DNA of 58,021 nucleotides, filler included, from Streblomastix strix (taxonomy: Eukaryota): assembly GCA_008636045.1 (NCBI GenBank). It is 3 parts of 3 records of this genome, joined end to end, with 100 filler letters (N's around TTAATTAATTAA, not from the genome) between each part and the next. Parts side by side here need not be neighbours in the genome. Positions count along the whole stretch, not along the records: positions 38,757 to 58,021 come from SNRW01000528.1; 2 more parts are not named here. One strand, 5' to 3'. The notes beneath the pieces were generated by a model that worked only from the letters and a program-made list of their open reading frames with translations, ran no database searches and was not told the origin of the DNA. A program made the position numbers and the translations under genes. Shown here one piece after another: positions 50,701-52,258 of this stretch; the stretch's first letter is position 1; the number at the start of each line of letters is the position of its first letter.

Positions 50701-52258
50701 TTTTGCTCAACATTAGATGTAAATAAATGAAGCAGATAAAATCATAGAAGACAACAAAGATGAAGAAATTATAGGGAAATCAATTAATAATAATTTGAAT
50801 TCAATCAACACTATTTTATCATCAACTTAATAAATTTAAGAAGATTAGTTCACAATAATTGAATAAGATTAGTCTAGTAAATAATAAACAATTTTGAAAT
50901 TTTCAGATTAAAAAGATATTGAGAATAGAATATCAGCAATAATTATATGCACAAATGAAAGTTCAATGATGAAATCAATTAAATCAAAATTTTTACATAA
51001 AATTGGAGGATGCGAAATAATAAATCATGTGAAAAGAACGTTAGAAACTCTGGGTACAAAATAGTGTATCGTTGTAATTTCTTAAGACATTGAAATGGAG
51101 ATTAGAAGCTGTCTGAATGAAAATGAAAAAATTGTAGTATAAAATGATCAAATGAAAATTATTAATGCAATTTAAGTTGGACTTTACGATATAGAAAATA
51201 TGGATGAAATTATACTTATTACATACGGTGATATTCCACTTATTAGCGAAGAAACCTACAAAAGAATGATTTGTGCCATAAATAATAACAAAAATTCATT
51301 GATATTAATAGGATTTTAAACAAATAATGTAAATAATGGGCACGATCGATTGATTATTGATTCAGAAAATATTATTAAGTTTATCATTAAATATAAAAAC
51401 GCCAGTGACAAATAGAAAGAAAATACATTATGCAGTACTGGAATTTTTGCTTTGAGAAGCTCAAGATTACTTTAAAATCTTCTTAAATTAGTTTAGCATA
51501 ATAATCAAGATAATTAATTTTGTTTTTCTGATATTATTGAATTGGCTATAAATTAGAATCATGTTTGTGCTTGTATCACAGTTGTTGAGAATGAAGTTAT
51601 GAAAGTTAATTCCATTGCAGATCTTTCAATAGTTGAGCATTCATATCAAACCGCAAAAAGAGAAGAATTTTTGAGCAAAGGCGTGAATCTTATTGATCCA
51701 GACACTGTATATTTTTCATACGGCACTGAAATCGAGAATGATGTTACAATTGAACAAAATGTCATATTTATGAACAATGTTAAATTGCATAGTGGAGCAG
51801 AAATTAAAGCATTCACCTACTTGGAAGATTGTGAGGTGTTTGGTGGTGCAATAATCGGACCGTTTGCAAGAATAAGACCTGAAAGTGTCATTGGCTAAAA
51901 TTCTAGAGTAGGTAATTTCTGTGAAATTAAAAAATCTTATCTGGGAAATGGTACAAAGGTTAGTCATCTTTCATATATTGGTGATTCTGATATTGGAGAA
52001 TAAACAAATATAGGTGCTGGGACTATAACATGTAACTATGATGGATATTCAAAATTCAATACAAAAATAGGAAGCAATTCTTTTGTTGGTTCTAATACAA
52101 TATTTATCGCTCCTGTATCAATTGGAGATAATACATTGACTGCAGCTGGAAGTGTTATTACCAAAGATGTGGATTCTAACTCATTAGCGATAACACGTTC
52201 AGAATAGAAAAATATACAAAACGGAATGATCAAATATAGAAGCAAAAGAAACAAATGA
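47788..52258 (+). CDS. DENN-domain protein fused to C-terminal GlmU (multi-exon)
   Basis: uDENN-like [14 protein letters not shown]; cDENN-like [26 protein letters not shown] intron 49569-49687; final exon 49688-52258 open through to the GlmU stop. 5' exon boundaries are approximate. Confidence 0.65.
50930..52258 (+). CDS. glmU: GlmU domain: degenerate uridyltransferase plus conserved glucosamine-1-phosphate acetyltransferase
   Basis: [66 protein letters not shown]; intronless with in-frame TAA/TAG. Confidence 0.92.

What the first reader, a model, noticed from the sequence alone, without database searches (positions are those of the whole stretch)
50930..52258. Half-dead GlmU: uridyltransferase motifs eroded, acetyltransferase motifs intact
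Seen: LAAGxGxRM reads ICTNESSMM, GTxHA reads KIINA, GYGR reads GHDR, and the IVE and EYYLTD motifs are lost, yet the frame stays open. The acetyltransferase motifs (FARIRP, EIKK, HLSYIGD, NIGAG, NYDG, GSN, AAGS) are kept. Inference: subfunctionalisation into a monofunctional GlcN-1-P acetyltransferase paired with a host UAP1, giving a hybrid bacterial/eukaryotic hexosamine pathway.
Basis: partly seen in the sequence, partly recalled or inferred. Interest (0 to 1): 0.7.

Follow-up and report, generated by a model that had tools for sequence, protein, structure and literature searches.

The report
Half-dead bacterial GlmU fused to DENN
In a termite-gut protist, a gene for the two-part bacterial sugar enzyme GlmU has lost the catalytic residues of one half, kept those of the other, is predicted to be fused behind a host membrane-trafficking (DENN) gene, and likely supplies an amino-sugar acetylation step whose usual eukaryotic enzyme appears to be missing.

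Summary
Of the columns conserved in 120 GlmU relatives, the protein keeps 29 of 49 in the uridyltransferase half and 64 of 67 in the acetyltransferase half. Conserved polar sites of the N-half change as often as variable ones, while its hydrophobic core is kept.

The frame is the end of a predicted nine-exon, 1,214-aa gene (47788-52258) whose front is 70% identical to a Streblomastix strix DENN protein. DNA contigs from two studies bridge the junction; no RNA was tested. The GlmU part nests among gut Rickettsiales-type GlmUs with intact motifs, so the decay came after the transfer. A published table lists UAP1 and mutases, but no GNA1 or GFAT, for S. strix.

Best reading: a monofunctional GlcN-1-P acetyltransferase in a glucosamine salvage route ending in host UAP1. 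The split is known in Staphylococcus (NagU), and this scan noted half-dead GlmUs in bacteria before. I found no eukaryotic or DENN-fused case. No activity was tested.

The parts
47788..47864 (+). Predicted exon 1 (ATG at 47788) of the DENN-family host part
   Evidence: GT-AG model, matches P0147 from residue 1
47932..48018 (+). Predicted exon 2
48087..48212 (+). Predicted exon 3
48292..48439 (+). Predicted exon 4; start of the DENN core
   Evidence: Pfam DENN lies on P0147 residues 87-264, 73% identical to the model there
48580..48652 (+). Predicted exon 5
48748..48840 (+). Predicted exon 6
48996..49068 (+). Predicted exon 7
49172..49568 (+). Predicted exon 8, DENN core
   Evidence: 67% identical to P0145, which passes the Pfam DENN cut-off
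49569..49687 (+). Predicted intron 8 (GTTTGA..ACAG, 13% GC); the least certain join
   Evidence: a paralogue contig is alike on both sides and replaced inside; both public paralogue models stop here instead
49688..50416 (+). 5' part of the last exon; dDENN-like by recalled motifs only
   Evidence: no TGA in frame; shared with a paralogue contig up to 50439; no Pfam match
50417..50929 (+). Gln/Asn-rich linker, 171 codons, in frame with both sides
   Evidence: 0 in-frame TGA against 4 and 10 in the other frames; 53 of 5000 shuffles do as well
50930..51613 (+). GlmU uridyltransferase domain: catalytic pocket eroded, fold kept
51614..51679 (+). GlmU helical arm
   Evidence: helix 229-249 in the model
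51680..52255 (+). GlmU left-handed beta-helix acetyltransferase domain and C-terminal tail, active-site residues intact
52256..52258 (+). TGA stop

Best explanation
This is a bacterial glmU gene in the genome of a TAA/TAG=Gln protist whose uridyltransferase pocket is eroded and whose acetyltransferase residues are intact; it is predicted to be translated as the tail of a spliced DENN-family host gene and likely works as a single-function glucosamine-1-phosphate acetyltransferase. Shown by sequence: residue loss in one half and retention in the other, an open frame across the junction, and nesting among gut Rickettsiales-type GlmUs. Inferred history: glmU from a gut alphaproteobacterium landed in frame at the 3' end of one copy of a duplicated DENN gene, which gave it a promoter and a start. 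It took on host codons. The uridyltransferase pocket decayed because host UAP1 already did that step, and the fold stayed because it lies between the start and the useful half and supports the trimer. Inferred pathway: scavenged glucosamine, then hexokinase, then a phosphohexomutase to GlcN-1-P, then this enzyme with acetyl-CoA to GlcNAc-1-P, then UAP1 to UDP-GlcNAc for N-glycans.
For: Residues: G14, G16, R18, G81, T82, Y139, G140, E154, N169, E195, Y197, T199 and G225 lost; R333, K351, H363, Y366, N377, A380, N386, S405 and R440 kept. Mutating the fingerprint arginine costs E. coli GlmU over 6000-fold, and Asn169Ser, the change seen here, impairs S. aureus GlmU (preprint 10.64898/2026.06.23.733835). 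Rates: branch length relative to the five sisters is 1.72 in the N-half and 0.76 in the beta-helix; scaled by the rest of the tree the N value exceeds the C value in 30 of 30 column bootstraps. Conserved polar/Gly columns changed: 12 of 31 in N against 2 of 43 in C; variable N columns 60 of 135 (p=0.69); changed core columns stay hydrophobic in 14 of 18 against 22 of 60. Fusion: nine exons, eight GT-AG introns, no stop in 1,214 codons, 255 of 365 residues identical to P0147, a S. strix protein with Pfam DENN at 36.1 bits over a cut-off of 23.4. One contig spans 49089-52477; a contig of a second study bridges 50861-51011. Donor: six-row clade at 99 and 100/92 on the C-half alone. Pathway: GNA1 orthogroup q2001799 has Monocercomonoides, Blattamonas and Paratrimastix members and no Streblomastix member; UAP1, two mutases, ALG7 and ALG13 are listed, with seven hexokinases (PMC10703272 supplements). 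In 2 of 43 other orthogroups shared by the first two genera Streblomastix is missing.
Against: No activity and no transcript was tested. Both public paralogue models end at IIPKV, where I place intron 8, and in-frame ATGs at 49871-50717 and 50966 allow a separate start. The S. strix assembly is fragmentary (BUSCO 69.6% against 75-77% for its kin). An empty orthogroup cell can mislead: Blattamonas is absent from the GFAT orthogroup yet has GFAT in the manual table. GFAT is not listed for S. strix either, so GNA1 may have gone with the whole de novo arm, and direct GlcNAc salvage would need no acetyltransferase. No mutase here is shown to act on GlcN-6-P. K25, Q76, D105 and N227 are kept, so some nucleotide or metal binding may remain. 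The window's own genome could not be searched; the S. strix tables are a proxy.
Confidence: 0.6

Rival explanations
1. The fusion is a regulated trafficking factor. The GlmU part trimerises the DENN Rab-exchange domain and, by binding GlcN-1-P, acetyl-CoA or a nucleotide in the dead pocket, tunes it to amino-sugar supply, much as eIF2B-epsilon and GMPPA pair a dead nucleotidyltransferase with a beta-helix (recalled).
For: The DENN part is full length with eight conserved splice junctions. The dead domain keeps its core and K25, Q76, D105 and N227. Foldseek lists GMPPA/GMPPB behind the GlmUs.
Against: A scaffold would not need all 25 of 25 invariant C-half residues. The sugar side of the N pocket is gone. 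A 171-residue low-complexity linker separates the parts. At least one paralogue without GlmU exists, so the fusion may simply be the way the gene gained expression.
Confidence: 0.14
2. The acetyltransferase is real but is made from its own start in the linker or at 50966, and the open frame to the DENN exons is incidental.
For: In-frame ATGs at 50717 and 50966/50969. Public paralogue models stop at IIPKV. No RNA evidence for the join.
Against: A start at 50966 would cut off the first beta-strand, which is still conserved. The linker has codon-position GC like coding DNA and is TGA-free at p of about 0.01. The Pfam match of the paralogue stops at model position 147 of 186, so the domain needs more sequence.
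Confidence: 0.11
3. GNA1 is present but was missed, and the kept acetyltransferase does a side job, such as clearing GlcN-1-P or acetylating galactosamine-1-P, or is on its way to decay.
For: Fragmentary assembly; orthogroup gaps can mislead; E. coli GlmU also accepts galactosamine-1-P (PMC10087520 section 4.1).
Against: The C-half is no faster than its bacterial sisters (ratio 0.76), so it is not decaying. The gap rate in the sampled table was 2 of 43.
Confidence: 0.13
4. Assembly chimera or bacterial contaminant.
For: The window is a scaffold with N gaps, and single-cell termite material is rich in bacteria.
Against: 13 in-frame TAA/TAG codons, two on conserved Gln. GC3 is 0.20, near the host part (0.17) and unlike L001 (0.37). 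No N lies in 47788-52258. A second study bridges the junction. No neighbour gene of eight donor-like loci matches the window.
Confidence: 0.02

Closest known systems
Bifunctional bacterial GlmU (TIGR01173; NF010933/PRK14353; E. coli PDB 1HV9, 2OI6)
   Same: Full-length two-domain fold (model pLDDT 94.6; TM about 0.75-0.86), and an intact acetyltransferase site; 54% identical to its nearest relative.
   Different: Fingerprint and sugar-binding residues lost; just below the TIGR01173 cut-off (365.2 against 366.85) and below that of NF010933 (453 against 505); encoded under table 6 in a eukaryote; predicted DENN fusion.
S. aureus GlmU plus NagU (bioRxiv 10.64898/2026.06.23.733835; abstract, passages and three results sections read)
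   Same: A GlmU with an impaired uridyltransferase (Ser for Asn169, as here) works beside a UAP1-like enzyme; some NagU-bearing bacteria keep only the C-terminal half.
   Different: There a bacterium gained a eukaryote-like uridyltransferase and its GlmU still has activity. Here a eukaryote gained the bacterial acetyltransferase and more than a dozen pocket residues are gone.
Mimivirus UDP-GlcNAc route L619, L316, R689 (PMC9614988, passages read)
   Same: A route built from enzymes of mixed bacterial and eukaryotic origin.
   Different: It keeps the eukaryotic order with a GNAT and borrows the GlmU N-half; this is the opposite half.
DENN-domain Rab exchange factors (Pfam PF02141); S. strix KAA6392148.1 and KAA6363930.1
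   Same: 70% identity over 365 residues; every predicted exon join of exons 1-8 aligns through.
   Different: No DENN-GlmU fusion among 14 longer GlmU hits (weak evidence) or in the paper search.
GMPPA and eIF2B gamma/epsilon (recalled)
   Same: Catalytically dead nucleotidyltransferase fold followed by a left-handed beta-helix.
   Different: Their beta-helices are not GlcN-1-P acetyltransferases; this protein is a recent GlmU. The LbH_EIF2B match is below its cut-off, as for ordinary GlmUs.

Membership tests
Bifunctional GlmU | Fingerprint L-X2-G-X-G-T-X-M-X4-P-K (PMC10087520) | tested here: not met
   Only M and K kept; P24 is also Ser in 3 of the 4 closest relatives
Bifunctional GlmU | Sugar-pocket residues T82, G140, E154, N169, Y197, T199 (roles recalled except N169) | tested here: not met
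   All six changed; each is 97-100% conserved in 120 relatives
Bifunctional GlmU | Metal/phosphate residues K25, D105, N227 and uracil-binding Q76 (roles recalled) | tested here: met
Bifunctional GlmU | Beta-helix acetyltransferase site R333, K351, H363, Y366, N377, A380, N386, S405, R440 (roles recalled) | tested here: met
   All kept; 25 of 25 invariant C-half columns
Bifunctional GlmU | Two-domain fold with helical arm | tested here: met
   the model was built on an alignment of intact GlmUs, so it leans to that fold
Bifunctional GlmU | Curated family score | tested here: not met
   Below the cut-off of all 11 listed GlmU equivalog models, TIGR01173 by under 2 bits
Bifunctional GlmU | Trimer and both enzyme activities | not testable with these tools
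   needs protein
DENN domain proteins | Core DENN (PF02141) above cut-off | tested here: inconclusive
   Met by both paralogues, 73% identical to the model in that part; single exons of the window give no match; the spliced model itself was not scanned
DENN domain proteins | uDENN and dDENN lobes | tested here: inconclusive
   No Pfam match; resemblance rests on recalled motifs
DENN domain proteins | Rab nucleotide exchange activity | not testable with these tools
   needs protein
Lateral transfer from gut alphaproteobacteria | Nested in a bacterial clade, fixed in host DNA, host codon use | tested here: met
   only one of the five nearest rows shows the label Rickettsiales, and P0002 is labelled Bacilli by its source

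The most novel reading that the evidence does not exclude
An amitochondriate eukaryote has dropped the eukaryotic GFAT-GNA1 route and makes UDP-GlcNAc with half of a Rickettsiales GlmU. The gene was switched on by in-frame capture behind a duplicated Rab-exchange gene, and the resulting trimeric DENN-GlmU protein links amino-sugar salvage from bacteria to membrane traffic.
Probability: 0.17. Interest if true: 0.87.

Novelty: new variant of a known kind. Interest (0 to 1): 0.66.

Why it matters
Eukaryotes acetylate glucosamine at the 6-phosphate stage with GNA1; bacteria do it at the 1-phosphate stage with GlmU. A eukaryote using the bacterial order would be the mirror image of the S. aureus NagU case and would show that this core step can be displaced by a symbiont gene. 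The locus also records how a transferred gene can gain expression: in-frame capture by the last exon of a duplicated host gene, recoding, then loss of the redundant activity only. It gives a testable handle on how Streblomastix may draw amino sugars from its bacteria. The alphaproteobacterial origin should not be read as a mitochondrial relic: the gene nests deep among extant gut lineages.

Tried and rejected
No whole genome is held, so GNA1, mutases and UAP1 could not be searched directly. No RNA holder listed. Single exons gave no Pfam match at E up to 10 (0 of 10), the 5' part of the last exon found no relative among 877 candidates, and P0147 matched no PDB chain. The single-sequence fold failed (pLDDT 36). 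The metagenome scan gave 75 loci, none above 55% identity and none a eukaryotic copy as far as identity shows. Four candidate ORF versions are not in the protein collection. Polymorphism against the second study is too thin to weigh: 2 of 3 listed changes are non-synonymous in the N-half and 1 of 4 in the C-half, on contigs of depth 2-3. The frame test on 21 listed paralogue differences was inconclusive: 5, 7 and 2 synonymous codons in the three frames. dN/dS against bacteria was not computed, because about 50% protein identity and a changed code saturate it; amino-acid branch lengths were used. Four papers were not held, so the roles of most active-site residues are recalled. Rejected: pseudogene under table 11, contaminant, mitochondrial origin.

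Full report
What the window is. Under table 11 the stretch 50930-52258 has 13 internal stops; under table 6 (TAA/TAG=Gln) it is one open frame of 442 residues ending in TGA. Two of the 13 codons sit on columns that are Gln in 120 of 120 and 118 of 120 relatives. The listed sequencing runs that hold the stretch are termite-gut material, and the only relative found for an upstream exon is a Streblomastix strix protein. That oxymonad uses this code (PMC13002328, passages read). The host is therefore likely S. strix or close kin. No whole genome is held for the window.

The observation. The protein is a full-length GlmU homologue (NCBIfam NF010933 E=7.5e-136; PDB; model pLDDT 94.6 from a 105-row alignment; Foldseek). 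I aligned it with E. coli GlmU and the 120 listed best hits. At columns 90% conserved it keeps 29 of 49 in the N-half and 64 of 67 in the C-half (p=1.7e-6); the poorest of the 120 keeps 38 of 49. At invariant columns it keeps 6 of 13 and 25 of 25. Lost, in E. coli numbers: L11, A13, G14, G16, R18, G81, T82, Y139, G140, E154, D157, N169, E195, Y197, T199, G225. Kept: M19, K25, Q76, Y103-D105, R141, D200, N227, and R333, K351, H363, Y366, N377, A380, N386, S405, R440. The fingerprint motif comes from PMC10087520 (sections 4.1-4.3 read). The weight of the arginine (over 6000-fold in E. coli) and of Asn169Ser comes from the NagU preprint. Other residue roles are recalled.

Constraint by domain. 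On a fixed 31-row topology the branch to this protein is 1.72 times the mean depth of its five sisters in the N-half and 0.76 times in the beta-helix; scaled by the rest of the tree, the N value exceeds the C value in 30 of 30 column bootstraps. In the N-half, conserved polar or Gly columns have changed as often as variable ones (12 of 31 against 60 of 135, p=0.69); in the C-half only 2 of 43 have. Changed hydrophobic columns of the N-half stay hydrophobic in 14 of 18 cases against 22 of 60 at variable columns (p=0.003). P0002 and P0003 change 0 and 2 of the 31 polar columns, measured against four rather than five neighbours. So catalytic constraint is released and structural constraint is not.

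There is no start codon at 50930. The frame is open back to 49601. Eight GT-AG introns of 10-24% GC join nine exons into a 1,214-residue frame without a stop from ATG 47788, with GlmU as residues 773-1214. Residues 1-358 are 255 of 365 identical to P0147 (S. strix KAA6392148.1), which passes the Pfam DENN cut-off (36.1 against 23.4 bits), as does P0145. The 171-codon linker has no in-frame TGA; 53 of 5000 dinucleotide shuffles match that. One contig of run X1, which may be the window's source, spans 49089-52477 with 2 differences, and a 151-base contig of run X2 from another study bridges 50861-51011. A contig across two parts shows no single transcript. A second, deeper X1 contig is a paralogue that follows the host part to 50439; its depth does not appear over GlmU, which fits duplication followed by capture in one copy. 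Against the model: both public paralogue models end at IIPKV, reading into my intron 8, and internal ATGs exist. If intron 8 is wrong, the GlmU is still in frame behind about 400 residues of host sequence, but not behind the DENN core.

Donor. The best hits are 43-54% identical down to rank 50; the nearest named genomes are Rickettsiales or unplaced Alphaproteobacteria bins of 0.8-1.1 Mb. In a 61-row tree the protein falls in a six-row clade at SH-aLRT 99. On the C-half alone, with 11 near-duplicate or long rows dropped (50 rows), the clade has 100/92. Of its five sisters, L001 is titled Rickettsiales, P0002 is labelled Bacilli by its source, and the names of the other three were cut off. The four closest relatives keep G14, R18, G81, T82, G140, E154 and N169, so the decay followed the transfer. 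GC3 is 0.20 against 0.17 for the host part and 0.37 for L001, and no other gene of eight donor-like loci matches the window.

Pathway context, from the supplements of PMC10703272 (passages of the main text, searches and 3 of 400 parts of S3 File, search of the manual table). The GNA1 orthogroup has members in Monocercomonoides, Blattamonas and Paratrimastix and none in Streblomastix. The UAP1 group has one Streblomastix member and the mutase group two. The Giardia members of these three groups are its known acetyltransferase, pyrophosphorylase and mutase (PMC8700996, passages). ALG7, ALG13 and ALG14 are listed, so UDP-GlcNAc is needed. Counted by eye in two parts of the table, Streblomastix is missing from 2 of 43 other groups shared by the two other oxymonads. 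Against a simple swap: GFAT is not listed for S. strix either, the assembly is fragmentary, and Blattamonas GFAT is missing from its orthogroup yet present in the manual table. S3 File is cut as held, and a gene outside any orthogroup would not show; the preprint's supplements were not seen.

Mechanism. Most likely (0.6): a trimeric GlcN-1-P acetyltransferase, expressed as the tail of the DENN gene, in a salvage route of hexokinase (seven listed), mutase, this enzyme and UAP1. GlmU's halves are separately active, the trimer is needed only for acetylation, and the N-domains point away from the trimer axis, so an N-terminal fusion is compatible. Every enzymatic step is inferred. Rivals: a ligand-tuned DENN regulator (0.14), GNA1 present and a side job (0.13), a separate transcript (0.11), artefact (0.02).

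Novelty. It works like the acetyltransferase half of GlmU but fails membership of bifunctional GlmU. The split with a UAP1-like partner is known in Staphylococcaceae and suggested for other bacteria. Earlier notes of this scan describe half-dead GlmUs in several bacterial lineages (unchecked). Six paper searches (listings only), the supplement searches and four look-ups among earlier findings showed no eukaryotic GlmU of this kind and no DENN-GlmU fusion. The S. strix genome paper itself was not held. Verdict: new variant of a known kind, interest 0.66.

Noticed in passing
window 5142-10178 and 13268-18345: Two inverted copies (88% over 5.1 kb) of an element with a broken family-B-like DNA polymerase frame (by recalled motifs; no Pfam match). 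Looks like a Polinton-type element.
   Followed up: no
window 19929-33581: P-loop ATPase (19929-20945), HNH_3 protein (25586-26158), a 652-aa frame without a match (26226-28184) and a 1,476-aa polymerase-like frame (29151-33581); likely an integrated Polinton-like virus of the protist.
   Followed up: partly
window 36535-38600: Reverse transcriptase (Pfam RVT_1) followed by frames that resemble RNase H and a tyrosine recombinase by recall: a DIRS-like retroelement, cut by an N gap at 38657.
   Followed up: no
window 38540-41407 and further upstream on the minus strand: TmcB-like membrane protein (Pfam TPR_TmcB, E=2.5e-21).
   Followed up: no
window 43025-46151 (-) and 52742-53101 (-): Armadillo-repeat and coiled-coil frames, and a protein kinase fragment just downstream of the GlmU stop on the opposite strand.
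   Followed up: no
window 19284-19383 and 38657-38756: Paired runs of 44 N around a 12-base spacer: scaffold joins, none inside the gene studied.
   Followed up: yes
P0147 and P0145: Both public S. strix DENN models end by reading into a probable GT-AG intron, so they may be truncated annotations.
   Followed up: partly
P0002: Labelled 'Bacilli bacterium' by its source but nests among alphaproteobacterial GlmUs: a mislabelled bin or another transfer.
   Followed up: no
PMC10703272 manual annotation table: S. strix has no listed GFAT but seven hexokinase entries, against three to five in its kin; it may depend on scavenged amino sugars.
   Followed up: partly
run X2, window 51941-52165: A contig about 81% alike to the acetyltransferase part: a bacterial glmU or a diverged protist copy; not resolved.
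   Followed up: no
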